From the NCBI RefSeq assembly GCF_057098645.1, contig NZ_CM169472.1: 64,000 nucleotides of DNA, one strand, 5' to 3'. A program made the translations under genes and the position numbers. Below, in pieces: positions 16,508 to 33,362 of this stretch. The notes below the pieces were generated by a model. It saw only the letters and a list, made by a program, of their open reading frames with translations. It did not search any database and had not been told where the DNA came from. Positions within the stretch are counted from its first letter, which is position 1; the number at the start of each line of letters is the position of its first letter.

Positions 16508-17111
16508 TTCGCGACTGCTGCCGACCGGCTCATCACCGCTTGAAGTCGCTGCCGCAAAAGCCTGTGCGGAAATTGAAAAAACGCCGGTCAGTATTCGTGA
16601 GCTGTGGAACCCGGACACCTGCCCGGCAAATCTGCTGCCGTGGCTGGCGTGGTCATTTTCGGTTGACCGCTGGGATGATAAGTGGCCGGAAGCGACAAAA
16701 CGCGCTGTTATCCGCGATGCGTATTTCATTCACTGCCATAAGGGCACTATAGGCGCAATCCGGCGTGTGGTGGAGCCGCTCGGCTATCTGATTGAGGTGA
16801 GGGAGTGGTGGCAGCTCAACGAGGAGCCGGGGACGTTCCGCATCGTTGTTGGCGTGCTTGAGCAGGGTATTACCGAGGAAATGTATCAGGAGCTGGAGCG
16901 CCTCGTTGCTGATGCAAAACCGGCAAGCCGCCATCTGACGGGACTGGCTATCAGTTTAAGTACAACCGGCAACATTTTTGCCGGTGCGGGATGCTATCAC
17001 GGTGACGCCCTGACGGTTTATCCCTACACCCCGGAGGCCATTATTGTCGGAGGGGATTATTTCCCGGCCTCGGCCATTCATTTAATTGATAACCTGAGAG
17101 TAAACGCATGA
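16500..17111 (+). CDS. I: baseplate protein (P2 gpI-like)
   Basis: 203-aa ORF overlapping J stop and H start; synteny. Confidence 0.85.
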   Translation: MSDSRLLPTGSSPLEVAAAKACAEIEKTPVSIRELWNPDTCPANLLPWLAWSFSVDRWDDKWPEATKRAVIRDAYFIHCHKGTIGAIRRVVEPLGYLIEVREWWQLNEEPGTFRIVVGVLEQGITEEMYQELERLVADAKPASRHLTGLAISLSTTGNIFAGAGCYHGDALTVYPYTPEAIIVGGDYFPASAIHLIDNLRVNA

Positions 17112-18388
17112 CAGTGAAATACTACGCCATTCTGACTAATCAGGGCGCAGCACGGCTGGCTAACGCGACGATGCTCGGCAGTAAGCTGAATCTGACGCAA
17201 ATGGCCGTTGGTGATGCGAATGGTGTCTTGCCGACACCAGACCCGGCACAGACAAAACTGATTAACCAGAAACGCATCGCGCCGCTGAATCTTCTGAGTG
17301 TTGACCCGAACAACCAGAGCCAGATTATTGCGGAGCAAATCATCCCTGAGAACGAGGGCGGATTCTGGATCCGTGAGATTGGGCTTTATGATGATGAAGG
17401 CGTACTCATTGCGGTGGCGAACTGCCCGGAAACGTACAAACCGCAGTTGCAGGAAGGCAGTGGTCGTACCCAGACTATCCGCATGATTCTGGTTGTCACG
17501 AATACCGAAGCTATTACGCTGAAAATCGACCCGTCGGTGGTACTGGCGACCCGTAAATACGTGGATGATGAAGTCCTGGAATTAAGGCTGTATGTGGATG
17601 ACCAGATGAGAAACCACATTGCCGCACAGGATCCTCATAGCCAGTATGCACAGAAACATAATCCGACATTTACCGGAGAACCAAAAGCGCCGACGCCTGC
17701 CGCAGGGAATAACACCACGCGGATTGCGACCACTGAGTTTGTTCAGGCCGCTATTACCGCTCTGATTAACGGTGCGCCAGCCACGCTGGACACACTGAAA
17801 GAAATTGCCGCAGCCATTAACAATGACCCGAAATTCAGTACCACCATTAACAATGCGCTGTCAGGTAAGCAGCCACTGGATGAGACGCTGACTCATTTGA
17901 GTGGAAAGGATGTTGCCGGTCTTCTCGCATACCTTGGTTTGGGAGAAGCGGCAAAACGGAATGTGGGCAACGGGGAAAACCAAATCCCTGATATGTCTTT
18001 CTGGACGGCTACTGGTGGCAATGGAAATTTTGTGATTCGTCAACCTGACGGGCTAATCATTCAGATGGTTACTGTAAGTATAAGCGGCCCAGTGGCGATG
18101 AATGGAATGACTGATAATGCTTATGCCATCACAGGTTCTAATAAGTCTTATATTGCCACAGCCACATTGCCCTTTGTATTTCCTAATAAGGTGCTGGGCG
18201 TTATCCCTCTGGTATCAACAACAGCCTATGGTGGTGTATCCAGTAATATTACAGGTTCATACGCGACGGCGGTTTGTTCTTTTGCCGCTGTCAGGGGGAA
18301 TAATACGATTGTGTTCAAAGTCGACAAACCACTGAATGCAGCCTTTCCTTCAGATACCAGCGTCTCAGCGTTAATCATTGGACGGTAA
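17108..18388 (+). CDS. H: tail fibre protein (P2 gpH-like); C-terminal part lies inside the invertible segment
   Basis: 426-aa ORF; crossover site inside the gene at the LGLGE motif; followed by a tail-fibre assembly gene. Confidence 0.88.
   Translation: MTVKYYAILTNQGAARLANATMLGSKLNLTQMAVGDANGVLPTPDPAQTKLINQKRIAPLNLLSVDPNNQSQIIAEQIIPENEGGFWIREIGLYDDEGVLIAVANCPETYKPQLQEGSGRTQTIRMILVVTNTEAITLKIDPSVVLATRKYVDDEVLELRLYVDDQMRNHIAAQDPHSQYAQKHNPTFTGEPKAPTPAAGNNTTRIATTEFVQAAITALINGAPATLDTLKEIAAAINNDPKFSTTINNALSGKQPLDETLTHLSGKDVAGLLAYLGLGEAAKRNVGNGENQIPDMSFWTATGGNGNFVIRQPDGLIIQMVTVSISGPVAMNGMTDNAYAITGSNKSYIATATLPFVFPNKVLGVIPLVSTTAYGGVSSNITGSYATAVCSFAAVRGNNTIVFKVDKPLNAAFPSDTSVSALIIGR
17922..17947. other. 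site-specific recombination (crossover) site of a Gin/Hin-family invertase, left copy, inside H
   Basis: TTCTCGCATACC-TT-GGTTTGGGAGAA; right half is the reverse complement of the left half of the site at 22512..22537. Confidence 0.6.
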
Positions 18389-18390
18389 GA

Positions 18391-18945
18391 ATGAACTCAG
18401 TATTCTTTTCACCCGGAAGTAAAAGTTTTTATCTGCAAGAATTGTTTCCAGAATATGAGGATGCGGGAACGCTTCCTGATGATGTTATTGAAATTACCCG
18501 AGAAACATATGAGCAATTTCTTGGGCTGCATCCAGAAGGGAAAGAAATTGGCGCTGACAGTTCAGGACGGCCAATATGGATTAATTCCCCGCCGCCTTCA
18601 AAAGAGGATGAGGTGCTGGCGGCTGAAATGAAAAAAATATCTTTGGTTTCAGAAGTCAATACCTACATCAATACCCATCAGTGGCCTGGCAAAGCTGCTA
18701 TTGGTCGTCTGAAAGGTGACGAGCTGGAACAATATAATTTATGGCTGGATTATCTGGACGCACTGGAACTGGTTGATACCTCCAGTGCTCCAGATTGCGT
18801 ATTCCGCTCTATTCGATCACGGATTGGCATCGAAGTCCGATCAGCGATTCGCATCCATTCGATCAACCGGGAACTTAACTTTTTCTACCGCTTTTTAACG
18901 CGTTTTTTCGCTGCTTTCCACTACCGGGGGATTTTTCCTCAGTGA
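18391..18945 (+). CDS. G: tail fibre assembly protein (gpG-like) with C-terminus replaced by IS-derived sequence
   Basis: 184-aa ORF; native sequence ends at ...DTSSAPD (nt ~18795), then reads into the IS21-family element. Confidence 0.7.
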   Translation: MNSVFFSPGSKSFYLQELFPEYEDAGTLPDDVIEITRETYEQFLGLHPEGKEIGADSSGRPIWINSPPPSKEDEVLAAEMKKISLVSEVNTYINTHQWPGKAAIGRLKGDELEQYNLWLDYLDALELVDTSSAPDCVFRSIRSRIGIEVRSAIRIHSINRELNFFYRFLTRFFAAFHYRGIFPQ

Positions 18946-19650
18946 CTCTCCCTGAAGGACCACTCGGTGTGAGTTATGTACCAGTCTGTCCAGGATGGCA
19001 TCTGCTGTTGTTGGGTTCTCCATCAGACCATGCCATTTATCTACCGGGAACTGGCTTACCACTATCGTGCTGCTTTGTCCGTAACGATCCTCTATGAGCT
19101 CCAGAAGGTCATTACACTGGGCGTTACTTAACTGTTCCAGCCCCAGATCGTCCAGGATTAGAACCTGTATTTTTTGCAACTGTTTCAGATATTTCAGCCA
19201 GCTGCCATCAACACGTCCCTGAGCCAGTTGTTCCAGTAATCGCCCGGTTCTACAGTACCGGACGCTGTGTTTCTGTCGACATGCCTGTTCGCCCAGCGCA
19301 TTGGCTATCCAGCTCTTGCCACATCCTGTCGGACCGGTTATCAGCAGGTTTTTCCTGTGGGTTATGTAGTGGCCGTTCAGCAGTTCTCTCATCTGTTCAG
19401 CCCGCAGACCTCTTGAGGCCGGATAGCGCAGCCCTTCCGGTGTTGCCTGGTATTTCAGGCCGGCATTTTTTCTCAACCGTGCCACACGGCTGTTTTCCCT
19501 GCTCAGAAGCTCGTCATCAACCAGCAGCGTCAGCCTTTCCTCGAACGACAGTTCGTCGTAGGTCTGAGGCGTTTCCCGCTGCCGTATCAGGCTCCCGGCC
19601 ATCGCCGGGAGTTTCAGTTGGGTCAGTTTGTTTAACAGGTTATCACTCAT
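18895..19650 (-). CDS. istB: IS21-family helper ATPase IstB
   Basis: Walker A GPTGCGKS, Walker B VLILDDLG; start trimmed to MSDNLLNKL within ORF-track 18895..19893. Confidence 0.9.
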   Translation of the reverse strand: MSDNLLNKLTQLKLPAMAGSLIRQRETPQTYDELSFEERLTLLVDDELLSRENSRVARLRKNAGLKYQATPEGLRYPASRGLRAEQMRELLNGHYITHRKNLLITGPTGCGKSWIANALGEQACRQKHSVRYCRTGRLLEQLAQGRVDGSWLKYLKQLQKIQVLILDDLGLEQLSNAQCNDLLELIEDRYGQSSTIVVSQFPVDKWHGLMENPTTADAILDRLVHNSHRVVLQGESLRKNPPVVESSEKTR

Positions 19651-19666
19651 ACTGTTGTTCCTTCTG

Positions 19667-21202
19667 TCAGTGGTAGTAGCCCGGACCACGCAGGTTTTCA
19701 TGCTCTGAAGCATATGCCGGATGTTGTTCGCCCTGGCGGGATAATGGAAGCTCCAGGTTCTCCCGATGGTGACGCAGCAGATTGTCGATAAAGCGTCTGT
19801 CAGGGGCGTTATAGTGCAGGGCAACGTAACAGGCCTTTTCCAGCCGTTCCGGGCCGTATTTTTTCTGAAGTGCCAGCAGCCCCAGAACTGCACGATAAGC
19901 CAGTTCCGGATGGGGTTTTGCCTTCAGCATGGATTCAACCACCCGGCCTGTGGACGGGCCCGTACGTTTTCCCTGCTCGATCAGGCGTTCCGGTGTCCAT
20001 GTCCCGTGCTGCCGGTGGCGCTCTGGCATGTGAAGCGGATTGGTTGTGTGTTTATATTCATGTGTGCTGCGCGGATGTTGCGCCACACACTGCCCCTTGT
20101 GCCAGAGCTGTACCACCGACTGCCCCGCCTTCAGTGACAGACGCTGACCGACCAGTTCGTGTGGAACGGAGTACCAGTGACGGGCATATTCAACGTGGTA
20201 GTCAGGGCCAACCTTCACAGCTTTGTATTCCGTGTATTCATAAGGTGCCAGAGGCAGCGGAGAGAGTGCTGGCGCATCCAGTATGCGGAAGCGTTCTGCA
20301 CGGGTTTGATTGCCGTACCCCTTCATTGGCCGGTTATTCATGTCTGTCAGTAACTCCCTAAGGCGCGCATTCAGCGCCCTGAGCGTGTGGAAGGTTTCAT
20401 TACGGATGCGGGCAAGAAGCCATCGTTCAACGATGAGGACGCCGTTTTCTGCTTTTGGTTTATCTTTAGGTTTGCGTGGTCGGGCCGGGATGATAACCGT
20501 GCCATAGTGCTCAGCCAGTGCCTGATAACTGTCGTTGATGACAGGCTCATATCGATCGGCCTTTTTCACTGCGCTTCTGAGGTTATCGGGGATGAGCAGC
20601 TTCGGTACGCCGCCCAGGAAGGTCAGGCAACGGCTGTGGGCATTTAACCATGACATCATGTCCTGACCTTCGCACGCTTCAACGTAGGTATAGTTGGACG
20701 CCCCCATTACGGCCACGAAGATTGCCACGCGGCGTATCTCACCGGTGTCCGGATTAATAACAGGAACCGTAGGACCACAGAAGTCGATAAAAAGCTTTTC
20801 GCCGGCACGATGCTCCTGGCGCATGGAGAGACGTCGCGTTTTTTTCCACTCCCGGTAGCAACGGCAGAAGTGCGAGTATCCCATCGCTTTGTTACCCGCC
20901 TGTGCCTTGTATTCCATCCACAACAGTTGCCGCGTCACACCTGGTTTTCTCATTTCCGTATCGAAGTACAACATGTCAGGCATTACAAGCTCTGATGCAA
21001 AGGTGTCTTTGGGCGGAAAAATGAGTTTCTCCAGCGTGTCATGGGATATATCAGCAGGTAATGGCCATGACAGAGAAGAGGCTTTGAAGCGGGCAAGAAC
21101 CTCAAAAACGGTTGAGGCGCTGATGTGTAACGTCAGTCCGATACAACGGTTAGTCAGCTTCTTGTCGAACTTGAGCTGAAGGATCTTAAAACAGGTTTCC
21201 AT
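19667..21202 (-). CDS. istA: IS21-family transposase IstA
   Basis: N-terminal HTH then DDE-type core; start trimmed to METCFKIL within ORF-track 19667..21313 (track start is a TTG). Confidence 0.88.
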   Translation of the reverse strand: METCFKILQLKFDKKLTNRCIGLTLHISASTVFEVLARFKASSLSWPLPADISHDTLEKLIFPPKDTFASELVMPDMLYFDTEMRKPGVTRQLLWMEYKAQAGNKAMGYSHFCRCYREWKKTRRLSMRQEHRAGEKLFIDFCGPTVPVINPDTGEIRRVAIFVAVMGASNYTYVEACEGQDMMSWLNAHSRCLTFLGGVPKLLIPDNLRSAVKKADRYEPVINDSYQALAEHYGTVIIPARPRKPKDKPKAENGVLIVERWLLARIRNETFHTLRALNARLRELLTDMNNRPMKGYGNQTRAERFRILDAPALSPLPLAPYEYTEYKAVKVGPDYHVEYARHWYSVPHELVGQRLSLKAGQSVVQLWHKGQCVAQHPRSTHEYKHTTNPLHMPERHRQHGTWTPERLIEQGKRTGPSTGRVVESMLKAKPHPELAYRAVLGLLALQKKYGPERLEKACYVALHYNAPDRRFIDNLLRHHRENLELPLSRQGEQHPAYASEHENLRGPGYYH

Positions 21203-21299
21203 AGTGCTCCTGGATTTTCTCTTTCTGGACATTGACGTCTCCACTGGTTTAAACACGGCAATGGAGACTGTGGTGAAAAGAGTTAATTCCCGGAGTGAC

Positions 21300-21434
21300 T
21301 GGCAGGATGCCAATCAATGATCGGAAGCATGCCAAATCGTGATCGATTGTGATGCCAAACTGTGATCGGAGATGGATGCCAAATCATGATCGATTCGAAT
21401 GCCAAACTGCGATCGATTCAGATGCCATTTTGCA
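21300..21434. repeat. tandem ~20-bp terminal repeats of the IS21-family element (transposase binding sites)
   Basis: five to six copies of GATGCCAAA(C/T)NGTGATCGAT-like units; similar units inverted at the other end (18796..18880). Confidence 0.7.
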
Positions 21435-21450
21435 CCAGATATTGAATGGC

Positions 21451-22056
21451 CTACGCCTCCGGTAGTTCAGGCCAGATGACATCCGGCGCGGTGCTGATAT
21501 CTGTTGCAGTCACCGCGTCAATGTAATCCAGCACAGCGTTAAGCCGGGTTGTTTCTGCCTGCGTCAGCTTCCGCCCGGCCTGCAATTTCAGCTGAATCAG
21601 ACTAATGGAAGCCATAGCCGCATCAATCAGTGACTGGCGCCGTACTTCTGCCGCGTCTACTGCGGCGTTATGCTGTGCCTCAGTGTCGGTCACCCATTTC
21701 TCACCATCCCATTTATCGTATGACGTTAACGGGGCGATAGTGGTTGTATTTTCAGGGTAATCACCCGGAACTGTGATTTCTTTTGATTCTCCTGTTTCGG
21801 TGCTATAGACGATTTCACCGCGATGGTCTGGCACATATTCCCATGAGTTAAAATCTGCAGAACGGCAAATTGCATAACCAGCTTTATATGAGCCAGGAGC
21901 ATCTAAACAGGAACATGCCGGGATACCGACACCCACAGCAAGATATTCAGTTGATGTGGAAATATATTCCCGTGTTTCACCATCATAATTATAAACGGTA
22001 ATGTCTCCGGCCTTTGTGGCGATGAGTTCATTATTTAATACAGCTTTACTTATCAT
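21451..22056 (-). CDS. tail fibre assembly protein, alternative copy in the invertible segment
   Basis: 201-aa ORF ending ...APDVIWPELPEA; directly downstream of the alternative fibre C-terminal cassette. Confidence 0.85.
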   Translation of the reverse strand: MISKAVLNNELIATKAGDITVYNYDGETREYISTSTEYLAVGVGIPACSCLDAPGSYKAGYAICRSADFNSWEYVPDHRGEIVYSTETGESKEITVPGDYPENTTTIAPLTSYDKWDGEKWVTDTEAQHNAAVDAAEVRRQSLIDAAMASISLIQLKLQAGRKLTQAETTRLNAVLDYIDAVTATDISTAPDVIWPELPEA

Positions 22057-22565
22057 GCAGCCCTCACAATATAATTAAAGGCGATGTTACGGGAGCGGGT
22101 TTCAGATGCTGTGCGAACTGAGCGAGATGCGTCGAATGTCCAGTTATAAGCGCCATAACCCTCAATAATTTCGGCTTCCTTTAGACCTGTAGATAATACT
22201 TGCCCATGTTGACTAAATGGCCCTGAACTAAGTACGTCTCTAAAAAGCTGGGTACGCCCAAAAGAACCAACAATATTCTGAATTGCATCATTCTGTGCAG
22301 ATAATAAGTTACGACCAGAGTCAATCCCGCGCCCATCATCCCAGCCACGAATAAATTCACCGCGTAAATCTGGTAATTTTAATGTTGGGTAAGCCTTTGC
22401 CAGATTTGGGTACTTTTCAGAAGAAAATACTGCTCCGTTACATTTTAGCCACCCCATTGGCGGAGTGGCTGAAGGCCACGGAACAGGCACACCAACCGGT
22501 AATGCAGAGCCTTCTCCCAAACCAACGTTTAAGAAAATGCAGAGATTATGTCTAACTGGCATCAT
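22053..22565 (-). CDS. alternative tail fibre C-terminal cassette (promoterless; expressed only after inversion fuses it to H)
   Basis: ORF contains the same NVGLGE junction motif as H at the crossover site; lies between the right crossover site and the alternative assembly gene. Confidence 0.75.
   Translation of the reverse strand: MMPVRHNLCIFLNVGLGEGSALPVGVPVPWPSATPPMGWLKCNGAVFSSEKYPNLAKAYPTLKLPDLRGEFIRGWDDGRGIDSGRNLLSAQNDAIQNIVGSFGRTQLFRDVLSSGPFSQHGQVLSTGLKEAEIIEGYGAYNWTFDASRSVRTASETRSRNIAFNYIVRAA
22512..22537. other. site-specific recombination (crossover) site of a Gin/Hin-family invertase, right copy
   Basis: TTCTCCCAAACC-AA-CGTTTAAGAAAA fits the TTnTCnnAAACC-nn-GGTTTnnGAnAA consensus with one mismatch; adjacent to the invertase gene. 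Confidence 0.65.
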
Positions 22566-22592
22566 CTCCGGTTTTTATTCAGGGGGATGCTC

Positions 22593-23186
22593 ATGCTTAT
22601 TGGCTATGTACGCGTGTCAACAAATGACCAGAACACGGAATTGCAGCGTAATGCGCTGGAGTGCGCAGGATGTGAGCTGATTTTTGAGGACAAAATCAGC
22701 GGCACGAAGTCCGACAGGCCGGGGCTGAAAAAACTGCTCAGAACATTATCGGAAGGTGACACTCTGGTTGTCTGGAAGCTGGACAGGCTGGGGCGTAGTA
22801 TGCGGCATCTGGTCATTCTGGTTGAGGAACTGCGCGAACGCGGCGTTAATTTTCGCAGCCTGACGGATGCTATTGATACCAGCACGCCGATGGGGCGTTT
22901 TTTCTTTCATGTGATGGGTGCCCTGGCTGAAATGGAGCGAGAACTCATTGTCGAGCGGACACGCGCCGGACTGGAAGCGGCCAGAGCCAAAGGTCGTATT
23001 GGTGGCAGACGACCGAAACTCACCGCGAGTGAGTGGGAGCAGGCCGGGCGTTTGCTGGCTGCAGGGGAGTCACGTCAACGCGTGGCACTGATTTTTGATA
23101 TTGGTCTGTCCACGCTCTATAAAAAATTTCCCTCATCAGCGACAAAGAATAAATTGTGTCATCCCTTAGCCAACCGGGACAAATAG
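22593..23186 (+). CDS. serine DNA invertase (Gin/Hin/Cin/Pin family)
   Basis: MLIGYVRVSTNDQ catalytic-serine N-terminus and C-terminal HTH; start trimmed from ORF-track 22548. Confidence 0.9.
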   Translation: MLIGYVRVSTNDQNTELQRNALECAGCELIFEDKISGTKSDRPGLKKLLRTLSEGDTLVVWKLDRLGRSMRHLVILVEELRERGVNFRSLTDAIDTSTPMGRFFFHVMGALAEMERELIVERTRAGLEAARAKGRIGGRRPKLTASEWEQAGRLLAAGESRQRVALIFDIGLSTLYKKFPSSATKNKLCHPLANRDK

Positions 23187-23245
23187 CCTGACATCTCCGG
23201 CACAACTGAAAATATCACTCACCCATTAACCACGGAGTTAAACGG

Positions 23246-24436
23246 ATGAGTGACTATCATCACGGCGTGCAGGTGCTGGAGATTAACGACGGCACCCGCG
23301 TCATTTCCACCGTATCCACGGCCATTGTCGGCATGGTCTGCACGGCCAGCGATGCAGATGCGGAAACCTTCCCCCTCAATAAACCGGTGCTGATTACCAA
23401 TGTGCAGAGCGCAATTGCAAAGGCCGGTAAAAAAGGCACGCTGGCGGCGTCGTTACAGGCCATCGCTGACCAGTCAAAACCGGTCACCGTTGTTGTGCGC
23501 GTGGAAGACGGCACCGGCGACGACGAAGAAACGAAACTTGCGCAGACCGTTTCCAATATCATCGGCACCACCGACGAAAACGGTCAGTACACCGGACTGA
23601 AAGCCCTGCTGGCGGCGGAGTCGGTAACCGGTGTTAAACCGCGTATTCTCGGCGTGCCGGGACTGGATACCAAAGAGGTGGCTGTTGCACTGGCATCAGT
23701 CTGTCAGAAGCTGCGCGCTTTCGGGTATATCAGCGCATGGGGCTGTAAAACCATTTCCGAGGTGAAAGCCTACCGCCAGAATTTCAGCCAGCGTGAGCTG
23801 ATGGTCATCTGGCCGGATTTCCTCGCATGGGATACGGTCGCCAGTACCACTGCCACCGCGTATGCCACCGCCCGTGCACTGGGGCTGCGTGCCAAAATCG
23901 ACCAGGAGCAGGGCTGGCATAAAACGCTGTCCAATGTCGGGGTGAACGGTGTTACCGGCATCAGCGCGTCCGTATTCTGGGATTTGCAGGAGTCCGGCAC
24001 CGATGCTGACCTGCTTAACGAGTCAGGCGTCACAACGCTGATTCGCCGTGACGGTTTCCGCTTCTGGGGTAACCGTACCTGCTCTGATGACCCGCTGTTC
24101 CTCTTTGAAAACTACACCCGCACCGCGCAGGTGCTGGCCGACACGATGGCTGAGGCGCACATGTGGGCGGTGGACAAGCCCATCACCGCAACGCTGATTC
24201 GCGACATCGTTGACGGCATCAATGCCAAATTCCGTGAGCTGAAAACAAACGGCTATATCGTGGATGCGGCCTGCTGGTTCAGCGAAGAATCCAACGATGC
24301 GGAAACCCTCAAGGCCGGAAAACTGTATATCGACTACGACTATACACCGGTGCCTCCTCTCGAAAACCTGACCCTGCGCCAGCGTATTACCGATAAATAC
24401 CTGGCAAATCTGGTCACTTCGGTTAACAGCAATTAA
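23246..24436 (+). CDS. FI: tail sheath protein (P2 gpFI-like)
   Basis: 396-aa ORF, same length as P2 FI; synteny. Confidence 0.93.
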   Translation: MSDYHHGVQVLEINDGTRVISTVSTAIVGMVCTASDADAETFPLNKPVLITNVQSAIAKAGKKGTLAASLQAIADQSKPVTVVVRVEDGTGDDEETKLAQTVSNIIGTTDENGQYTGLKALLAAESVTGVKPRILGVPGLDTKEVAVALASVCQKLRAFGYISAWGCKTISEVKAYRQNFSQRELMVIWPDFLAWDTVASTTATAYATARALGLRAKIDQEQGWHKTLSNVGVNGVTGISASVFWDLQESGTDADLLNESGVTTLIRRDGFRFWGNRTCSDDPLFLFENYTRTAQVLADTMAEAHMWAVDKPITATLIRDIVDGINAKFRELKTNGYIVDAACWFSEESNDAETLKAGKLYIDYDYTPVPPLENLTLRQRITDKYLANLVTSVNSN

Positions 24437-24448
24437 GGAGCCTGACCG

Positions 24449-24967
24449 ATGGCAATGCCGCGCAAACTCAAGTTAATGAACGTCTTTCTGAACGGCTACA
24501 GCTATCAGGGCGTCGCGAAGTCCGTCACGCTGCCAAAACTGACCCGTAAGCTCGAAAACTATCGCGGTGCGGGGATGAACGGCAGCGCACCGGTAGACCT
24601 CGGCCTTGATGACGATGCGCTGTCAATGGAGTGGTCGCTCGGTGGCTTCCCGGATTCGGTTATCTGGGAGCTTTACGCCGCAACCGGTGTGGATGCCGTA
24701 CCGATTCGTTTTGCAGGCTCTTACCAGCGCGACGATACCGGCGAAACGGTGGCCGTCGAGGTGGTCATGCGTGGACGTCAGAAAGAAATCGACACCGGCG
24801 AGGGTAAACAGGGAGAAGACACCGAGTCGAAAATCTCCGTGGTCTGCACCTATTTCCGGCTGACGATGGACGGTAAGGAGCTGGTCGAAATCGACACCAT
24901 CAACATGATTGAGAAGGTGAACGGCGTCGACCGGCTGGAGCAACACCGCCGCAATATCGGCCTGTGA
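24449..24967 (+). CDS. FII: tail tube protein (P2 gpFII-like)
   Basis: 172-aa ORF; synteny. Confidence 0.92.
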   Translation: MAMPRKLKLMNVFLNGYSYQGVAKSVTLPKLTRKLENYRGAGMNGSAPVDLGLDDDALSMEWSLGGFPDSVIWELYAATGVDAVPIRFAGSYQRDDTGETVAVEVVMRGRQKEIDTGEGKQGEDTESKISVVCTYFRLTMDGKELVEIDTINMIEKVNGVDRLEQHRRNIGL

Positions 24968-25023
24968 TTTTCATCCGGTCAGCCTGGCTGACCGGTTAAC
25001 CCCGATTCATAAGTGAGAAAACC

Positions 25024-25299
25024 ATGAACAAAGAAAATGTGATTACCCTGGACAATCCGGTCAAACGTGGTGAGCAGGTTATCGAACAGGTCACGCTGAT
25101 GAAACCCAGTGCCGGGACGCTGCGCGGTGTCAGTCTGGCAGCGGTCGCAAACTCCGAAGTCGATGCACTGATTAAGGTGTTGCCGCGCATGACGGCACCG
25201 ATGCTGACCGAGCAGGAAGTCGCCGCACTGGAACTGCCTGACCTTGTGGCGCTGGCCGGTAAGGTGGTCGGTTTTTTGTCGCCGAACTCGGTGCAGTGA
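25024..25299 (+). CDS. E: tail assembly chaperone (P2 gpE-like)
   Basis: 91-aa ORF between the tube and tape-measure genes. Confidence 0.88.
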   Translation: MNKENVITLDNPVKRGEQVIEQVTLMKPSAGTLRGVSLAAVANSEVDALIKVLPRMTAPMLTEQEVAALELPDLVALAGKVVGFLSPNSVQ

Positions 25300-25451
25300 C
25301 GTTTCCGAAAAATCTCTCGGTCGATGACCTGATGGCGGATGTGGCAGTGATATTTCACTGGCCGCCATCAGAACTGTATCCCATGAGCCTGACCGAACTC
25401 ATCACATGGCGCGAAAAGGCGCTCCGGCGAAGCGGAAACACGAATGAGTAA
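25024..25451 (+). CDS. E': E+E' extended chaperone made by -1 programmed frameshift at T_TTT_TTG (25272..25278)
   Basis: slippery heptamer near the 3' end of E; the -1 frame stays open to 25451, overlapping the T start. Confidence 0.7.
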
Positions 25452-27891
25452 CAATGTAAAATTACAGGTATTGCTCAGGGCTGTTGACCAGGCATCCCGC
25501 CCGTTTAAATCCATCCGCACAGCGAGCAAATCGCTGTCGGGGGATATCCGGGAAACACAAAAATCACTGCGCGAGCTGAACGGTCAGGCGTCCCGTATTG
25601 AGGGATTTCGCAAGACCAGTGCACAGCTTGCCGTGACTGGTCATGCACTTGAAAAGGCACGGCAGGAAGCCGAAGCCCTTGCCACACAGTTTAAAAACAC
25701 CGAACGTCCGACCCGTGCTCAGGCGAAAGTGCTGGAATCCGCAAAGCGTGCGGCGGAGGACTTACAGGCGAAATATAACCGCCTGACGGATTCTGTTAAA
25801 CGCCAGCAGCGGGAACTGGCCGCTGTGGGAATTAATACCCGCAATCTTGCACATGATGAGCAGGGACTGAAAAACCGTATCAGTGAAACCACCGCACAGC
25901 TTAACCGGCAGCGTGATGCGCTGGCGCGTGTCAGTGCACAACAGGCAAAACTTAACGCAGTAAAACAGCGTTATCAGGCCGGAAAAGAACTGGCCGGAAA
26001 TATGGCCTCGGTGGGCGCTGCCGGTGTGGGGATTGCGGCGGCGGGAACGATGGCCGGAGTTAAGTTGCTGATGCCCGGTTATGAGTTTGCGCAGAAAAAC
26101 TCAGAATTGCAGGCCGTGCTCGGAGTGGCAAAAGACTCCGCCGAAATGACCGCACTACGCAAACAGGCGCGCCAGCTCGGTGACAACACCGCCGCCTCGG
26201 CGGATGATGCGGCCGGTGCACAGATAATCATCGCGAAAGCGGGTGGGGATGTTGATGCCATTCAGGCGGCAACGCCGGTCACGCTGAATATGGCGCTGGC
26301 GAACCGCCGCACGATGGAAGAAAACGCCGCCCTGCTGATGGGGATGAAATCCGCCTTTCAGCTTTCAAACGATAAGGTCGCTCATATCGGGGATGTTCTC
26401 TCCATGACGATGAACAAAACCGCCGCCGATTTTGACGGCATGAGCGATGCGCTGACCTATGCCGCACCTGTGGCAAAAAATGCCGGTGTCAGCATTGAAG
26501 AAACCGCCGCAATGGTCGGGGCGCTGCATGATGCAAAAATCACAGGCTCAATGGCGGGGACGGGAAGCCGTGCCGTGTTAAGTCGCCTGCAGGCACCGAC
26601 GGGAAAAGCATGGGATGCACTCAAAGAGCTTGGCGTGAAAACCTCAGACAGTAAGGGGAATACCCGACCAGTATTTACCATTCTGAAAGAAATGCAGGCC
26701 ATCTTTGAGAAAAACCGGCTCGGTACTGCCCAGCAGGCTGAATACATGAAAACTATTTTCGGGGAGGAGGCCAGCTCAGCCGCCGCCGTGCTGATGACTG
26801 CCGCCTCAACCGGAAAGCTGGACAAACTGACCGCCACACTGAAAGCCTCAGACGGTAAAACGGAAGAGCTGGTTAAAATCATGCAGGACAACCTCGGCGG
26901 TGACTTTAAGGAGTTTCAGTCCGCTTATGAGGCGGTGGGGACTGACCTGTTTGACCAGCAGGAAGGCACACTGCGTAAGCTCACGCAGACGGCCACAAAG
27001 TATGTGTTAAAACTCGACGGCTGGATCCAGAAAAACAAATCACTGGCGTCAACCATCGGCCTCATTGTCGGTGGCGCACTGGCGCTTACTGGCATCATCG
27101 GTGCAATTGGTCTTGTAGCCTGGCCGGTTATCACCGGCATTAATGCCATCATCGCGGCAGCAGGCGCAATGGGGGCAATCTTCACGACGGTTGGCAGTGC
27201 TGTTATGACCGCCATCGGGGCGATTAGCTGGCCGGTTGTGGCTGTGGTGGCCGCTATTGTCGCCGGGGCGTTGCTTATCCGTAAATACTGGGAGCCTGTC
27301 AGCGCATTCTTTGGCGGTGTGGTGGAAGGGCTGAAAGCGGCATTTGCGCCGGTGGGGGAACTGTTCACGCCACTTAAGCCGGTGTTTGACTGGCTGGGCG
27401 AAAAGTTACAGGCCGCGTGGCAGTGGTTTAAAAACCTGATTGCCCCGGTCAAAGCCACCCAGGACACCCTGAACCGTTGCCGTGACACGGGCGTCATGTT
27501 CGGGCAGGCACTGGCTGACGCGCTGATGCTGCCGCTTAATGCGTTCAACAAACTGCGCAGCGGTATTGACTGGGTACTGGAAAAACTCGGCGTCATCAAC
27601 AAAGAGTCAGGCACGCTTGACCAGACCGCCGCCAGAACTCATGCCGCCACGTATGGCACCGGTGGTTATATTCCGGCGACCAGCTCTTATGCTGGCTATC
27701 AGGCTTATCAGCCAGTTACGGCACCGGCTGGCCGCTCTTATGTGGACCAGAGTAAAAACGAATATCACATCAACCTGACGGGCGGTACTGCGCCGGGGAC
27801 ACAGCTCGACCGCCAGTTACAGGATGCGCTCGAAAAATACGAGCGGGATAAACGTGCGCGCGCCCGTGCCAGCATGATGCATGACGGTTAA
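25444..27891 (+). CDS. T: tail tape measure protein (P2 gpT-like)
   Basis: 815-aa ORF, coiled-coil N-terminus and Gly/Ala-rich TM segments. Confidence 0.93.
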   Translation: MSNNVKLQVLLRAVDQASRPFKSIRTASKSLSGDIRETQKSLRELNGQASRIEGFRKTSAQLAVTGHALEKARQEAEALATQFKNTERPTRAQAKVLESAKRAAEDLQAKYNRLTDSVKRQQRELAAVGINTRNLAHDEQGLKNRISETTAQLNRQRDALARVSAQQAKLNAVKQRYQAGKELAGNMASVGAAGVGIAAAGTMAGVKLLMPGYEFAQKNSELQAVLGVAKDSAEMTALRKQARQLGDNTAASADDAAGAQIIIAKAGGDVDAIQAATPVTLNMALANRRTMEENAALLMGMKSAFQLSNDKVAHIGDVLSMTMNKTAADFDGMSDALTYAAPVAKNAGVSIEETAAMVGALHDAKITGSMAGTGSRAVLSRLQAPTGKAWDALKELGVKTSDSKGNTRPVFTILKEMQAIFEKNRLGTAQQAEYMKTIFGEEASSAAAVLMTAASTGKLDKLTATLKASDGKTEELVKIMQDNLGGDFKEFQSAYEAVGTDLFDQQEGTLRKLTQTATKYVLKLDGWIQKNKSLASTIGLIVGGALALTGIIGAIGLVAWPVITGINAIIAAAGAMGAIFTTVGSAVMTAIGAISWPVVAVVAAIVAGALLIRKYWEPVSAFFGGVVEGLKAAFAPVGELFTPLKPVFDWLGEKLQAAWQWFKNLIAPVKATQDTLNRCRDTGVMFGQALADALMLPLNAFNKLRSGIDWVLEKLGVINKESGTLDQTAARTHAATYGTGGYIPATSSYAGYQAYQPVTAPAGRSYVDQSKNEYHINLTGGTAPGTQLDRQLQDALEKYERDKRARARASMMHDG

Positions 27892-27905
27892 GGAGGTGAC
27901 GAAAA

Positions 27906-28385
27906 ATGATGCTCGCGTTAGGTATGTTTGTTTTTATGCGCCAGACGCTGCCACACCAGACCATGCAGCGTGAATCAGATTATCGCTGGCCGTCAAATTC
28001 CCGTATCGGTAAACGGGATGCCTTTCAGTTTCTCGGTGTGGGTGAGGAAAACATTACGCTTGCCGGTGTGCTTTATCCCGAACTGACCGGCGGCAAGCTG
28101 ACGATGACCACGCTCAGGCTGATGGCAGAGGAAGGTCGGGCGTGGCCGTTGCTGGATGGCACCGGCATGATTTACGGCATGTATGTCATCAGCAGGGTGA
28201 GTGAAACAGGGAGTATTTTCTTTGCAGACGGCACACCCCGAAAAATTGATTTTACGCTGTCGCTCACCCGCGTGGATGAATCACTGGCCGCGCTTTATGG
28301 CGATATCGGTAAACAGGCGGAATCGCTCATCGGTAAGGCTGGCAGTATGGCGACTAAATTCACGGGGATGACGGGGGCGGGATAA
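27906..28385 (+). CDS. U: tail protein (P2 gpU-like)
   Basis: 159-aa ORF; synteny. Confidence 0.9.
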   Translation: MMLALGMFVFMRQTLPHQTMQRESDYRWPSNSRIGKRDAFQFLGVGEENITLAGVLYPELTGGKLTMTTLRLMAEEGRAWPLLDGTGMIYGMYVISRVSETGSIFFADGTPRKIDFTLSLTRVDESLAALYGDIGKQAESLIGKAGSMATKFTGMTGAG

Positions 28386-29548
28386 TGCTGGATGCGCTGA
28401 CATTTGATGCAGGCAGTACGCTGACGCCGGATTACATGCTGATGCTCGACAGCAGGGATATTACCGGCAATATCAGCGACCGTCTGATGAGCATGACCCT
28501 GACGGATAACCGGGGCTTTGAGGCTGACCAGCTTGATATTGAACTGAACGACGCCGACGGGCAGGTAGGGCTGCCGGTTCGTGGCGCTGTCCTGACGGTG
28601 TATATCGGCTGGAAAGGTTTTGCCCTGGTATGCAAAGGGAAATTTACCGTTGATGAGGTTGAACACCGGGGCGCGCCGGATGTGGTCACCATCCGCGCCC
28701 GGAGTGCAGATTTTCGCGGGACGCTCAATTCCCGCCGGGAAGGCTCCTGGCATGACACCACGCTCGGTGCGATTGTTGAGGCGATTGCCTCCCGTAACAG
28801 GCTGGAAGCCAGTGTCGCTCCGTCACTGGCCGGAATTAAAATCCCGCACATCGATCAGTCGCAGGAGTCTGATGCGAAATTCCTGACCCGTCTAGCAGAA
28901 CGCAACGGCGGTGAGGTGTCGGTAAAAATGGGAAAACTGTTGTTTCTCAAAGCGGGGCAGGGGGTGACGGCCAGCGGTAAAAAAATCCCGCAGATTACCA
29001 TCACCCGCAGCGACGGCGACCGTCATCATTTTGCGATTGCTGACCGTGGAGCCTACACCGGCGTAACGGCAAAGTGGTTACACACCAAAGACCCGAAGCC
29101 ACAAAAGCAGAAGGTAAAACTGAAACGCAAAAAGAAAGAGAAACACCTGCGCGCACTGGAGCACCCGAAAGCGAAACCGGTCACGCAGAAGAAAGCGCCA
29201 AAAGTACCGGAAGCGCGCGAAGGTGAATACATGGCCGGTGAGGCTGACAATGTTTTTGCCCTGACCACGGTATATGCCACGAAAGCGCAGGCCATGCGCG
29301 CCGCTCAGGCGAAGTGGGACAAACTGCAACGGGGCGTCGCGGAGTTCTCCATCAGTCTGGCTACCGGTCGGGCAGATATTTACACGGAAACGCCGGTCAA
29401 AGTGTCAGGCTTTAAGCGCGTCATAGACGAGCAGGACTGGACAATCACTAAGGTGACACACTTTCTGAATAATAGCGGCTTCACGACGTCCTTGGAGCTT
29501 GAGGTCAGGCTTTCTGATGTGGAGTACGAAACAGAAGATGATGAGTGA
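28385..29548 (+). CDS. D: tail protein (P2 gpD-like, late control gene D)
   Basis: 387-aa ORF; synteny. Confidence 0.92.
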   Translation: MLDALTFDAGSTLTPDYMLMLDSRDITGNISDRLMSMTLTDNRGFEADQLDIELNDADGQVGLPVRGAVLTVYIGWKGFALVCKGKFTVDEVEHRGAPDVVTIRARSADFRGTLNSRREGSWHDTTLGAIVEAIASRNRLEASVAPSLAGIKIPHIDQSQESDAKFLTRLAERNGGEVSVKMGKLLFLKAGQGVTASGKKIPQITITRSDGDRHHFAIADRGAYTGVTAKWLHTKDPKPQKQKVKLKRKKKEKHLRALEHPKAKPVTQKKAPKVPEAREGEYMAGEADNVFALTTVYATKAQAMRAAQAKWDKLQRGVAEFSISLATGRADIYTETPVKVSGFKRVIDEQDWTITKVTHFLNNSGFTTSLELEVRLSDVEYETEDDE

Positions 29549-29629
29549 TGTCTTTTGTTTATCTGTTTGTTTTATAAGGATAAATTAACTAAAATGGCAC
29601 CATCAACAAAACCGGAAGAGGTGCTCGCG

Positions 29630-29848
29630 ATGTTTCATTGTCCTTTATGCCAGCATGCCGCACATGCGCGTACAAGTCGCTATATCACTGACACGACAAA
29701 AGAGCGTTATCACCAGTGCCAGAACGTGAATTGCAGCGCCACGTTCATCACTTATGAGTCGGTACAGCGATACATCGTGAAGCCGGGAGAAGTCCACGCC
29801 GTAAGGCCGCACCCGTTGCCGTCAGGGCAGCAAATTATGTGGATGTAA
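29630..29848 (+). CDS. ogr: late transcription activator Ogr (zinc-finger)
   Basis: 72-aa ORF MFHCPLCQHAAH...CQNVNC with four Cys; start trimmed from ORF-track 29555. Confidence 0.9.
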   Translation: MFHCPLCQHAAHARTSRYITDTTKERYHQCQNVNCSATFITYESVQRYIVKPGEVHAVRPHPLPSGQQIMWM

Positions 29849-29860
29849 TTACAAACAGAA

Positions 29861-29886
29861 AGCCCCTCAGTCGAGGGGCTTTTTTT
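29861..29886 (+). terminator. intrinsic terminator after ogr
   Basis: AGCCCCTC-AGTC-GAGGGGCT hairpin followed by TTTTTTT. Confidence 0.75.
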
Positions 29887-29976
29887 GTCGATGTGGTCAA
29901 TGTGTGGACGTGACCAGAAATAAATCCTTTTATTTCATGCAATTAGATATCAAAAAATGTCACCAATAACTGACAT
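29887..29976. other. attR: attR: prophage right attachment region with Int arm-type repeats and a core overlapping the pflA start
   Basis: direct repeats TGTGGTCA / TGTGGACG resemble the P2 Int arm-site consensus TGTGGACA; host-like sequence resumes at ~29962. Confidence 0.5.
29950..29976 (-). pseudogene. pflA: pflA 5' fragment: native start codon plus five codons (MSVIG) fused to phage sequence, reading MSVIGDIF-stop
   Basis: reverse complement ATGTCAGTTATTGGT sits ~191 nt downstream of the pflB stop, where pflA starts in E. coli; the frame hits a stop after 8 codons. Confidence 0.7.
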
Positions 29977-30100
29977 TGCGGTGTTTCTCCAGATGTGGCC
30001 CATCTGAGGCCGTGTTGGTGCGCAGCTCGAAGGCTACGTCGAGTCTGTTTTGGCAGTCACCTTAAAGTATAGATAGCTGACAAAAAAGGCTCTCGTGCTA

Positions 30101-30128
30101 AAAAAGGCCCCACTTTCGTGGAGCCTTT
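30101..30128 (-). terminator. pflB intrinsic terminator
   Basis: imperfect GC hairpin followed by a T-run on the minus strand just downstream of the pflB stop. Confidence 0.55.
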
Positions 30129-30167
30129 ATTGTACGCTTTTTACTGTACGATTTCAGTCAAATCTAA

Positions 30168-32450
<2,283 letters not shown>

Positions 32451-32504
32451 GTAACACCTACCTTCTTAAGTGGATTTTTTATTTACTGCGTACTTCGACA
32501 ACCA

Positions 32505-33362
32505 TTAATGGTGATCGTTTTCACGCAGGTAAATGACCCAGTATGTCAACCCAACCAACAAACCACCGCCGATAATATTACCGATCGTAACCGGAATCAG
32601 GTTATCAGTGATGAAGTTCATCACGGTCAGGTGAGAAAAATTTTCCGGTGCAGAACCGACAGCGGTCCAGAATTCCGGAGATGCGAAGTCGCGGATTACA
32701 ATACCCATCGGGATCATAAACATGTTTGCGATACTGTGCTCAAAACCGCTGGCAACAAACATCGCGACCGGCAGCACCATGATAAACGCTTTGTCCATCA
32801 GGCTGCGGCCAGAATAACTCATCCATACTGCCAGACATACCATCAGGTTTGCCAGGATACCAAGGCAGACGGCCTCAATAAAAGTATGGTGCACTTTGTG
32901 GTCGGCGGTTTGTAGGACGTTTAGTCCCCATTGACCATTTGCGGTCATATACTCGCCGGAAAGCCACATTAAAAGTACAAACAGCAGTGCGCCGACCAGG
33001 TTGCCAAAATAGACATTTAGCCAGTTTTTAGCCAACTGACCCCAGGTGATGCGCCCACTCGCCTTAGCAACAACAATCAACACTGTGGAAGTAAAGAGAT
33101 CGGCTCCGCAGACAACACAAAGAATCAGCCCCAGAGAGAAGCAAATGCCGCCAACCAGTTTTGCCATGCCGAAGGGCATTGTGCCTGTGCCAGTGGTTGC
33201 TGTGATATAGAAGACGAATGCGATTGAGATGAAAACACCGGCGGTAATCGCCAGATAGAAAGTCTTAAGCGGATGTTTCGTTGCTTTATAGACACCCGCC
33301 TCTTCGGCCACTTTGGCCATTGCAGCAGGAAGTAAAAGATCAAAAGGGTTGTCAGCTTTCAC
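32505..33362 (-). CDS. focA: formate channel FocA (GTG start)
   Basis: ORF track 32505..33701; start trimmed to V-KADNPFDLL (GTG), giving ~285 aa; coordinate +/-1 nt. Confidence 0.88.
   Translation of the reverse strand: MKADNPFDLLLPAAMAKVAEEAGVYKATKHPLKTFYLAITAGVFISIAFVFYITATTGTGTMPFGMAKLVGGICFSLGLILCVVCGADLFTSTVLIVVAKASGRITWGQLAKNWLNVYFGNLVGALLFVLLMWLSGEYMTANGQWGLNVLQTADHKVHHTFIEAVCLGILANLMVCLAVWMSYSGRSLMDKAFIMVLPVAMFVASGFEHSIANMFMIPMGIVIRDFASPEFWTAVGSAPENFSHLTVMNFITDNLIPVTIGNIIGGGLLVGLTYWVIYLRENDHH

What the first reader, a model, noticed from the sequence alone, without database searches (positions are those of the whole stretch)
25272..25278. Conserved -1 programmed frameshift in the tail chaperone gene (E/E')
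The slippery heptamer T_TTT_TTG lies near the 3' end of E, and the -1 frame remains open for ~57 codons to 25451, overlapping the tape-measure start. This is the expected chaperone frameshift and supports an intact tail module.
Basis: partly seen in the sequence, partly recalled or inferred. Interest (0 to 1): 0.2.

Follow-up and report, generated by a model that had tools for sequence, protein, structure and literature searches.

The report
Known P2 tail-chaperone ribosomal frameshift site
This is the well-known ribosome-slipping site that lets a P2-type prophage make two tail-assembly proteins (gpE and gpE+E') from one gene start; it is real and conserved, but it is ordinary and was shown experimentally for phage P2 in 2002.

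Summary
TTTTTTG lies at 25272-25278, in register as T_TTT_TTG in gene E (25024-25299, 91 aa). The -1 frame runs 57 sense codons to the TAA at 25449-25451 and overlaps the tape-measure ATG (25444) by 8 nt.

The motif and the open frame are not statistically unusual on their own. The homology is decisive:
- The -1 peptide hits Pfam PF06528 (Phage_P2_GpE, E=2e-22).
- The window is identical to phage P2 from 25228 to 25451.
- The predicted 142-aa fusion is exactly P2 gpE+E' (NP_046780.1 / O64312).
- In 16 divergent Peduoviridae-type loci, E' always lies in the -1 frame with an in-register slippery heptamer.
- In 75 unique close relatives, substitutions in E' are mainly synonymous only when read in the -1 frame.

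Verdict: an already known -1 programmed ribosomal frameshift in a tail assembly chaperone gene, so interest is low.

Two additions:
- A conserved Shine-Dalgarno-like AGGTG(G) lies just upstream of the heptamer and may stimulate the slip. I could not test this here, and I found no description of it in the papers I could read.
- The F operon is intact, but an IS21-family insertion truncates a tail-fibre assembly gene elsewhere in the prophage. This qualifies the 'intact tail module' claim.

The parts
25024..25299 (+). Gene E (91 aa), the zero-frame tail assembly chaperone; identical in protein sequence to P2 gpE
   Evidence: ORF; Pfam PF10109 Phage_TAC_7, E=1.5e-12; exact match to TAP_BPP2
25262..25267 (+). 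Shine-Dalgarno-like AGGTGG (AGGKG / GGNGG classes), a putative upstream stimulator of the slip; function inferred, not shown
   Evidence: Strongest anti-SD-pairing 9-mer in the whole E gene, -12.2 kcal/mol. It meets the published SD-like criteria, as do 11-12 of 17 loci against a 12% background. Val81 GTG is invariant in 75 unique sequences.
25272..25278 (+). Slippery heptamer T_TTT_TTG, where P-site tRNA-Phe and A-site tRNA-Leu re-pair one base back
   Evidence: Sequence and register. Same sequence as the annotated P2 site. Kept in 73 of 75 close relatives and 12 of 16 divergent loci.
25278..25451 (+). E' extension in the -1 frame: 57 sense codons plus TAA; made only as the C-terminal part of the 142-aa gpE+E' = join(25024..25278, 25278..25451)
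   Evidence: Pfam PF06528 Phage_P2_GpE, E=2e-22. The fusion is exactly NP_046780.1/O64312. Synonymous:nonsynonymous differences are 20851:11174 in the -1 frame, against 2835:32295 and 1986:32362 in the other frames. No conserved start codon of its own.
25444..27891 (+). Gene T, tape measure protein (815 aa); its ATG overlaps the E' stop by 8 nt
   Evidence: ORF; PF10145; same length as P2 T; weak SD of its own
24449..24967 (+). Gene FII, tail tube protein (172 aa), immediately upstream of E
   Evidence: PF04985, E=2e-60; same length as in P2
23246..24436 (+). Gene FI, tail sheath protein (396 aa), first gene of the F operon
   Evidence: PF04984 / PF17482; same length as in P2
27906..29548 (+). 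Genes U (27906-28385, 159 aa) and D (28385-29548, 387 aa), which complete the FETUD operon
   Evidence: PF06995 and PF05954; same lengths as in P2

Best explanation
This is the programmed -1 ribosomal frameshift site of a P2-type (Peduovirus) prophage tail operon.

Most ribosomes translate E (25024-25299) to its TGA and make the 91-aa chaperone gpE. A minority slip, reported as about 10% for P2. With tRNA-Phe on UUU (25273-25275) and tRNA-Leu on UUG (25276-25278), the slipping ribosomes move back one base onto UUU/UUU. They resume at GUC (25278-25280) and read 57 more codons, giving the 142-aa gpE+E' (...GFL|VAELG...).

By analogy with lambda gpG/gpGT, the shared E part binds the tape-measure protein gpT, whose gene follows and overlaps the E' stop. 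The E' part recruits the tube protein. The fixed slip frequency therefore sets the ratio of the two chaperones needed to build a tail of the right length.

What is shown here: the sequence anatomy, identity to P2, and selection on the -1 frame.
What is shown elsewhere, for P2: that the fusion is produced and that E' is essential.
What is inferred: the binding partners, and a stimulatory role for the upstream SD-like AGGTGG.
For: - Anatomy and register.
- E = PF10109 and the -1 peptide = PF06528 at E=2e-22; gene order is sheath, tube, E, T, U, D.
- 422 of 428 nt are identical to P2 E..E', and every base from 25228 to 25451 is identical.
- The P2 RefSeq record annotates E+E' as a 2-piece join with a '-1 translational frameshift' site. 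The phage 186 record says the product is 'probably produced by a translational frameshift'.
- The deduced fusion is exactly NP_046780.1 / UniProt O64312 'Tail assembly protein E''.
- Papers citing the P2 experiment (Christie et al. 2002): the TTTTTTG site with 91-aa and 142-aa products (PMC3091744); E' lacks an RBS, runs 37 nt back into E, and the T6G lies about 20 nt before the GUG (PMC3931495); efficiency is 2-3 times that of lambda (PMC5009743).
- tblastn of the fusion: 401 of 418 phage records hold at least 80% of it, and nearly every listed hit is two adjacent pieces, i.e. two frames.
- In all 16 divergent loci examined (33-75% identity in E), E' is in the -1 frame. The in-register heptamer in the overlap is TTTTTTG in 12 of them. 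The other four have TTTTTTC, C_CCT_TTC, A_AAT_TTT or G_GGA_AAG.
- In 75 unique IMG/VR relatives, E and the fusion are always intact, and substitutions in E' are mostly synonymous only in the -1 frame.
- E' has no conserved start codon. In 186, Kp4860-2, ST16phi5.4 and MAR the first candidate start lies inside the conserved domain.
Against: - Nothing here measures the protein product from this locus. Production and efficiency are carried over from P2.
- U_UU.U_UU.G is not among the efficient -1 motifs in the systematic E. coli reporter study (PMC4066793). There is also no conserved downstream structure. How P2 reaches about 10% is therefore not explained by the heptamer alone.
- The chaperone roles of E and E' are by analogy with lambda. 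No solved structure or interaction data for this family was found.
- I could not read the primary P2 paper, which is not held. The 10% figure rests on my recollection of its abstract and on the review's '2- to 3-fold higher' statement.
Confidence: 0.95

Rival explanations
1. Transcriptional slippage. RNA polymerase stutters on the T6 run and adds one U to a fraction of mRNAs, and standard translation of those mRNAs gives E+E'.
For: The site is a homopolymeric T6 run. Some relatives reported in the literature have T7G or T7C (PMC3931495). Inserting one U would give a product with the same reading frame, differing at most at the junction.
Against: - The run is always exactly six T and always in the X_XXY_YYZ codon register, in 75 of 75 close relatives.
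- Four divergent lineages have non-homopolymeric heptamers at the same place: C_CCT_TTC, A_AAT_TTT, G_GGA_AAG and T_TTT_TTC. These fit tandem tRNA re-pairing and do not fit polymerase stuttering.
- From my own knowledge, known bacterial slippage sites usually need runs of about 8-9 or more.
- The P2 record and the literature describe the event as translational.
Confidence: 0.03
2. E' is an independent small gene (51 aa) started at GTG 25296, as NCBI's pipeline annotates it in E. coli genomes ('GpE family phage tail protein'), with no frameshift needed.
For: A GTG lies in the -1 frame at 25296. PGAP and many phage records list E' as a separate CDS.
Against: - There is no SD-like sequence in the 16 nt before GTG 25296 (CGCCGAACTCGGTGCA).
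- That start is not conserved. Phage 186 has no candidate start before the Met inside the DDLMAD motif. Kp4860-2, ST16phi5.4 and MAR have none until well inside the conserved domain.
- The literature states that P2 E' lacks a ribosome-binding site.
- The in-register slippery heptamer is conserved in the E/E' overlap in all lineages, which an independent gene would not require.
Confidence: 0.03
3. A chance motif in a decaying prophage: the heptamer and open frame are relics and nothing functional is made.
For: The heptamer and a 57-codon open frame are individually unremarkable. The prophage carries an IS21 insertion in a tail-fibre assembly gene.
Against: - All F-operon genes are full length and about 97% identical to P2.
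- The E' region is base-for-base identical to functional P2.
- There is strong purifying selection on the -1 frame across relatives.
- Identical copies occur in many E. coli genomes.
Confidence: 0.02

Closest known systems
Bacteriophage P2 E / E+E' programmed -1 frameshift (Christie, Temple, Bartlett & Goodwin 2002, J Bacteriol 184:6522; RefSeq NC_001895 P2p25/P2p26)
   Same: Same genes, same operon position, same heptamer, the same 37-nt E/E' overlap and the same 8-nt overlap with T. Both protein products are 100% identical. The DNA is identical from 25228 to 25451 and 98.6% identical over E..E'.
   Different: Six substitutions in the 5' two-thirds of E, none of which changes the protein; 5 are at third codon positions. 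Elsewhere the prophage differs from P2 in the tail-fibre/invertase region and in accessory genes.
Phage lambda G/GT and the general dsDNA-phage tail assembly chaperone frameshift (Levin et al. 1993; Xu, Hendrix & Duda 2004, 2013, 2014)
   Same: Two overlapping ORFs between the major tail/tube gene and the tape-measure gene. A -1 slip near the end of the first ORF gives a fixed low ratio of long to short product. One relative (Mannheimia PHL101) even uses lambda's G_GGA_AAG.
E. coli dnaX -1 frameshift (A_AAA_AAG with an upstream SD-like element and a downstream hairpin)
   Same: A -1 tandem slip in E. coli with an SD-like sequence a short distance upstream of the heptamer.
   Different: No conserved downstream hairpin here. 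The heptamer is different and intrinsically weaker. The SD-like element is closer, with 6 nt between AGGTG and the second motif base, and it is untested. The frameshift product here is longer than the zero-frame product, whereas in dnaX it is shorter.

Membership tests
P2-type E/E+E' tail chaperone -1 frameshift (Peduoviridae) | E homologue (tail assembly chaperone) encoded between the tail tube gene and the tape-measure gene | tested here: met
   PF10109 at E=1.5e-12; flanked by PF04985 (tube) and PF10145 (tape measure); protein identical to P2 gpE
P2-type E/E+E' tail chaperone -1 frameshift (Peduoviridae) | In-register X_XXY_YYZ slippery heptamer (T_TTT_TTG in P2) inside the E/E' overlap near the 3' end of E | tested here: met
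   T_TTT_TTG at 25272-25278, 7 codons before the E stop and within the 37-nt overlap; same sequence as the annotated P2 site
P2-type E/E+E' tail chaperone -1 frameshift (Peduoviridae) | -1 frame ORF homologous to P2 E' (PF06528), under selection as protein and lacking its own conserved start/RBS | tested here: met
   PF06528 at 78.7 bits; synonymous:nonsynonymous pattern is specific to the -1 frame; no conserved start
P2-type E/E+E' tail chaperone -1 frameshift (Peduoviridae) | E' ends at or overlaps the start of the tape-measure gene | tested here: met
   8-nt overlap (ATGAGTAA) in the window. In the 12 relatives with an annotated T start, 9 overlap by 4-26 nt, one abuts, and two have gaps of 40 and 52 nt.
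P2-type E/E+E' tail chaperone -1 frameshift (Peduoviridae) | The fusion protein is actually produced (about 10%) and E' is essential for tail assembly | not testable with these tools
   Shown for P2 in the literature (cited). The window is base-identical to P2 over the heptamer, the 44 nt before it and all of E'. No expression data for this locus.
Lambda G/GT-type tail assembly chaperones (general class) | Sequence or fold homology to characterised siphophage chaperones | tested here: inconclusive
Lambda G/GT-type tail assembly chaperones (general class) | The short product binds the tape measure, the long product also binds the tube/major tail protein, and neither is in the virion | not testable with these tools
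   Known for lambda (PMC5009743). For the P2 family this is inference only.
dnaX-like SD-stimulated -1 frameshift | [quoted passage not shown] | tested here: met
   AGGTG at 25262-25266 lies 6 nt before base 25273 counted from its 3' end, or 11 nt counted from its 5' end. The criterion is met in 11-12 of 17 loci against 12% of background positions. Whether the element has any effect is untested.
dnaX-like SD-stimulated -1 frameshift | Downstream stimulatory hairpin or pseudoknot 5-9 nt after the heptamer | tested here: not met
   RNAalifold on 12 lineages predicts 0 pairs. The only strong local stem starts 50 nt downstream and shows 0 compensatory changes in 75 sequences. The literature also reports none for P2.
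Transcriptional slippage site | Long homopolymeric run, with no dependence on codon register | tested here: not met
   The run is only T6 and always in register. Non-homopolymeric heptamers replace it in four lineages.

The most novel reading that the evidence does not exclude
The P2-family slip site has a previously undescribed upstream stimulator. An internal Shine-Dalgarno-like AGGTG(G/A)T (window 25262-25268) pairs with the 16S rRNA 3' tail of the elongating ribosome just before T_TTT_TTG. This would explain how an intrinsically weak E. coli motif with no downstream structure reaches about 10% frameshifting.

Support:
- It is the strongest anti-SD site in the whole E gene in most TTTTTTG lineages.
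- It meets the published SD-stimulator criteria in 11-12 of 17 loci, against a 12% background.
- The Val81 GTG codon inside it never varies in 75 unique sequences, while other Val codons do.
- It is absent from three of the four lineages that use other heptamers. PHL101, the fourth, has a different qualifying motif (GAGG/AGGA) further upstream.

Against:
- The motif also encodes a conserved K/E/Q-V-V/I peptide.
- The lineages are related to one another.
- Synonymous-resampling P values are only 0.035-0.1 per locus.
- The spacing is at the short end of the stimulatory range.
- I could not read the primary P2 paper to see whether it was already tested.
Probability: 0.3. Interest if true: 0.3.

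Novelty: already known. Interest (0 to 1): 0.1.

Why it matters
It matters mainly for annotation. Automated pipelines split this locus into two genes ('phage tail assembly protein' plus a 51-aa 'GpE family phage tail protein' starting at GTG 25296), as seen in every listed E. coli genome and in many phage records. The evidence says the second product is made only as the 142-aa fusion. The DNA stretch is found in 1,582 of 5,426 complete E. coli genomes. An intact site is a useful marker that the core tail operon of a P2-type prophage is likely functional. The only open mechanistic point is what raises the efficiency of a weak heptamer. The conserved SD-like element offers a cheap, testable answer.

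Tried and rejected
- Heptamer rarity as evidence: rejected. 25 copies were found against about 18 expected.
- Open-frame length as evidence: rejected when taken alone. A -1 frame open for at least 57 codons follows 21-24% of trial positions. It is informative only when restricted to real genes.
- Downstream stimulatory structure:
  - The single-sequence fold gives z = -2.1.
  - The 12-lineage consensus fold has no pairs.
  - The 10-bp stem at 25329-25338 / 25362-25371 lies 50 nt away, codes for the most conserved peptide motifs, and shows no compensatory change (one search used arm coordinates that were off by one and should be ignored). Rejected as a stimulator.
- Independent initiation of E': rejected on comparative grounds.
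- An F rather than V junction residue, as implied by the RefSeq site coordinate 19685: rejected. Only the V form exists in databases and it is NP_046780.1.
- Reading Christie et al. 2002 directly: not held by DOI or by PMC id.
- The search for related loci with the 16-sequence alignment failed because the alignment was too divergent. It was redone with 5 sequences, which returned only relatives at 70% identity or more.
- NCBIfam has no model hit for E or E'.

Full report
**Observation**

Positions 25272-25278 read TTTTTTG. Gene E is the ORF 25024-25299 (91 aa). Its codons run GGT(25270) TTT(25273) TTG(25276), so the heptamer is in the register T_TTT_TTG needed for tandem tRNA slippage, and it ends 7 codons before the E stop. 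The -1 frame is closed by a TAA just before 25263 and then stays open to the TAA at 25449-25451. Re-reading G25278 gives 57 sense codons and a 142-aa fusion. The tape-measure ORF starts at ATG 25444, so the E' stop overlaps it by 8 nt. Every factual statement in the finding is therefore correct.

**Is it more than chance?**

The motif and the open frame alone are not.
- TTTTTTG occurs 25 times in the window, against 17.7 +/- 3.9 in shuffles.
- A -1 frame open for at least 57 codons is seen after about 21% of mechanical ORF ends.
- Restricting the count to 14 real + strand prophage genes is more telling. There are 12 in-register X_XXY_YYZ heptamers in 4711 codons, and only this one is followed by a long -1 frame: 57 codons against 0-15 for the others.

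The decisive evidence is homology. The -1 peptide matches Pfam PF06528 'Phage P2 GpE' (78.7 bits, E=2e-22), and E matches PF10109 'Phage_TAC_7'. The neighbours are sheath (FI), tube (FII), tape measure (T), U, D and ogr, in P2 order.

**Identity with P2**

The window carries a P2-type prophage, and 23166-29937 is collinear with the P2 F operon at 97% identity. Over E..E' the window differs from P2 (NC_001895 19430-19857) at 6 of 428 positions. All six lie upstream of 25228, and five are at third codon positions. The heptamer, the 44 nt before it and all of E' are identical to P2 base for base.

The P2 record annotates a two-piece E+E' CDS ('shares amino terminus with gpE; -1 frameshift; essential tail protein') and a 'site of -1 translational frameshift'. 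The phage 186 record says its Orf52 is 'probably produced by a translational frameshift'.

The fusion I derived by re-reading G25278 (...GFLVAELG...) is exactly NP_046780.1 / UniProt O64312 'Tail assembly protein E''. The 91-aa protein is exactly P2 gpE. The alternative junction (F) implied by a literal reading of the RefSeq site coordinate is not on record.

I could not obtain the primary paper, Christie et al. 2002. Papers citing it agree with what I measured:
- The site is TTTTTTG, with 91-aa and 142-aa products (PMC3091744).
[quoted passage not shown] - Efficiency is 2- to 3-fold higher than lambda's (PMC5009743).

- tblastn of the fusion against 50,697 phage records found 418 records. Of these, 401 hold at least 80% of the fusion, and nearly every listed hit is two adjacent pieces, which means two reading frames.
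- I fetched 16 divergent loci, with 33-75% identity in E, from Escherichia, Klebsiella, Yersinia, Salmonella, Burkholderia, Ralstonia, Pseudomonas, Aeromonas, Vibrio, Acidovorax and Mannheimia phages.
- In all 16 the E' homologue is in the -1 frame relative to E, and an in-register slippery heptamer lies in the overlap. It is TTTTTTG in 12 loci. The other four have TTTTTTC (Vibrio MAR), C_CCT_TTC (ST16phi5.4), A_AAT_TTT (phage 503458) and the lambda-type G_GGA_AAG (Mannheimia PHL101).
- This turnover of the site, with the frame relationship preserved, argues for tRNA re-pairing and against polymerase stuttering.
- The fusion proteins align along their full length, and E125 and W129 in the -1-encoded half are invariant.
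- A scan of IMG/VR gave 75 unique 428-nt E..E' sequences with 76-100% pairwise identity. All encode an intact 91-aa E and an intact 142-aa fusion. 73 carry TTTTTTG and 2 carry TTTTTTC.
- In the E'-unique region, codon differences are 20851 synonymous to 11174 nonsynonymous in the -1 frame. Read in the other two frames they are 2835 to 32295 and 1986 to 32362. The -1 frame is therefore the one under protein-level selection.

**Rival explanations**

- *Independent initiation of E'.* NCBI's pipeline annotates E' this way, from GTG 25296. This is unlikely. No SD precedes that GTG. In 186, Kp4860-2, ST16phi5.4 and MAR, no start codon occurs before the conserved domain.
- *Transcriptional slippage.* This is unlikely for the reasons above, and because the run is always exactly T6 and always in register.
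- *A dead relic.* This is contradicted by full-length F-operon genes and by identity to functional P2.

**Mechanism**

Most ribosomes terminate at the E stop. A fraction slip back one base on U_UUU_UUG, resume at GUC and add the 57-residue E' domain.

**Stimulators**

No conserved structure follows the heptamer, in line with the literature. A perfect 10-bp stem at 25329-25338 / 25362-25371 starts 50 nt downstream. It codes for the LMAD and WPPS motifs, shows no compensatory change in 75 sequences, and is absent in distant relatives.

Upstream, AGGTGG (25262-25267) is the strongest anti-SD-pairing site in the whole E gene, at -12.2 kcal/mol. The real RBSs of E and T score only -5.2 and -3.7. 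The same holds in most TTTTTTG lineages. It does not hold in three of the four lineages with other heptamers or in Kp4860-2. PHL101 carries a weaker GAGG/AGGA further upstream that still meets the criteria below.

By the published criteria for stimulatory SD-like elements (PMC4066793), 11-12 of 17 loci qualify, against 12% of background positions. Val81 GTG, inside the motif, is invariant in 75 sequences, whereas other Val codons vary at 0.13-0.66. The same study does not list U_UU.U_UU.G among the efficient E. coli motifs, so a stimulator would make sense.

This remains a lead and not a result. The motif also encodes a conserved peptide, and the lineages are related. Synonymous resampling gives only P of about 0.035-0.1 per locus. 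The spacing is also short.

**The 'intact tail module' claim**

FI, FII, E, T, U and D all have P2 lengths. Elsewhere, the tail-fibre region is a Cin/Gin-type invertible segment, and an IS21-family element of the ISSso4 type lies inside it. The element cuts the currently expressed tail-fibre assembly gene at about codon 136. The prophage's int/C/cox end lies outside the window.

**Verdict**

The feature is the already known P2 E/E+E' frameshift, identical in product to the experimentally studied case, so interest is low.

Noticed in passing
window 25262-25268: SD-like AGGTGGT just upstream of the slippery heptamer. It is the strongest anti-SD-pairing site in the whole E gene (-12.2 kcal/mol, against -5.2 and -3.7 at the real E and T starts). 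It is conserved in most TTTTTTG lineages, and the Val81 GTG codon inside it is invariant in 75 unique sequences. It may be an undescribed stimulator of the frameshift.
   Followed up: partly
window 25329-25338 / 25362-25371: Perfect 10-bp inverted repeat (CTGATGGCGG / CCGCCATCAG) inside E', starting 50 nt downstream of the heptamer. It is kept in 59 of 75 close relatives but shows no compensatory changes, and it is absent in distant relatives. It encodes the conserved LMAD and WPPS motifs, so it is probably a by-product of the protein sequence.
   Followed up: yes
window 25444-25451: The E' stop (TAA) overlaps the T start (ATG) by 8 nt, and T has only a weak SD of its own. An overlap or abutment is found in 10 of the 12 relatives with an annotated T start. 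Acidovorax phage Alfacinha3, which has a 52-nt gap, has a strong SD before T. This suggests that T translation may be coupled to E+E' termination.
   Followed up: partly
window 25296-25451; L003 1817-1972: RefSeq/PGAP annotates E' in E. coli genomes as a separate 51-aa 'GpE family phage tail protein' starting at GTG, with no frameshift join, and many phage records do the same. This looks like a systematic annotation artefact. The stretch occurs in 1,582 of 5,426 complete E. coli genomes.
   Followed up: yes
L001 2686 (P2 record 19685) = window 25279: The P2 RefSeq 'site of -1 translational frameshift' coordinate is one base downstream of the re-read G (window 25278). A literal join at that coordinate would give F at residue 86, but the deposited protein has V, as tandem slippage predicts.
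   Followed up: yes
L012 843, L015 852, L016 834, L018 882: Slip-site turnover in relatives. Klebsiella phage ST16-OXA48phi5.4 has C_CCT_TTC, Escherichia phage 503458 has A_AAT_TTT, Vibrio phage MAR has T_TTT_TTC, and Mannheimia phage PHL101 has the lambda-type G_GGA_AAG. All are in register in the E/E' overlap.
   Followed up: partly
window 17108-23186: The tail-fibre region is an invertible segment. It holds the fibre gene (17108-18388) with tfa (18391-18945), and a convergent alternative tfa' (21451-22056, - strand) with an alternative fibre tip (22053-22565, - strand). 27-nt inverted repeats at 17922-17948 and 22511-22537 are the likely crossover sites. A serine invertase (22548-23186; Resolvase + HTH_7) sits where P2 has fun(Z).
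   Followed up: partly
window ~18784-21438: An IS21-family element of the ISSso4 type (istA 19667-21313, istB 18895-19893, both on the - strand) is inserted into the 3' end of the + strand tail-fibre assembly gene at about codon 136. The native C-terminus (PDIEWP...) resumes right after the IS. No complete E. coli genome in the collection holds this junction, so the window may come from a Shigella or a similar strain.
   Followed up: partly
window 13264-14508 (-): A 414-aa ORF with an AAA_22-like domain matches the PADLOC candidate defence family PDC-S59 (E=2.7e-31). It sits where P2 has the non-essential orf30, between S and V.
   Followed up: partly
window 2352-3674 (+): A 440-aa ORF with no Pfam, PADLOC or NCBIfam hit occupies the position of P2 orf91/tin/old, next to cos (3787-3834). 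That locus carries anti-phage genes in P2.
   Followed up: partly
window 1-2268 and 29937-35561: The window starts exactly at the ATG of P2-type gene A, so the int/C/cox/B end of the prophage is outside it. P2 homology ends at about 29937, close to the attP core, and pflB (30168-32450), focA and ycaO follow on the - strand.
   Followed up: no
window 29555-29848: The mechanical ogr ORF is 97 aa from a TTG. The P2-like 72-aa Ogr would start at ATG 29630 (MFHCPLCQ...).
   Followed up: no
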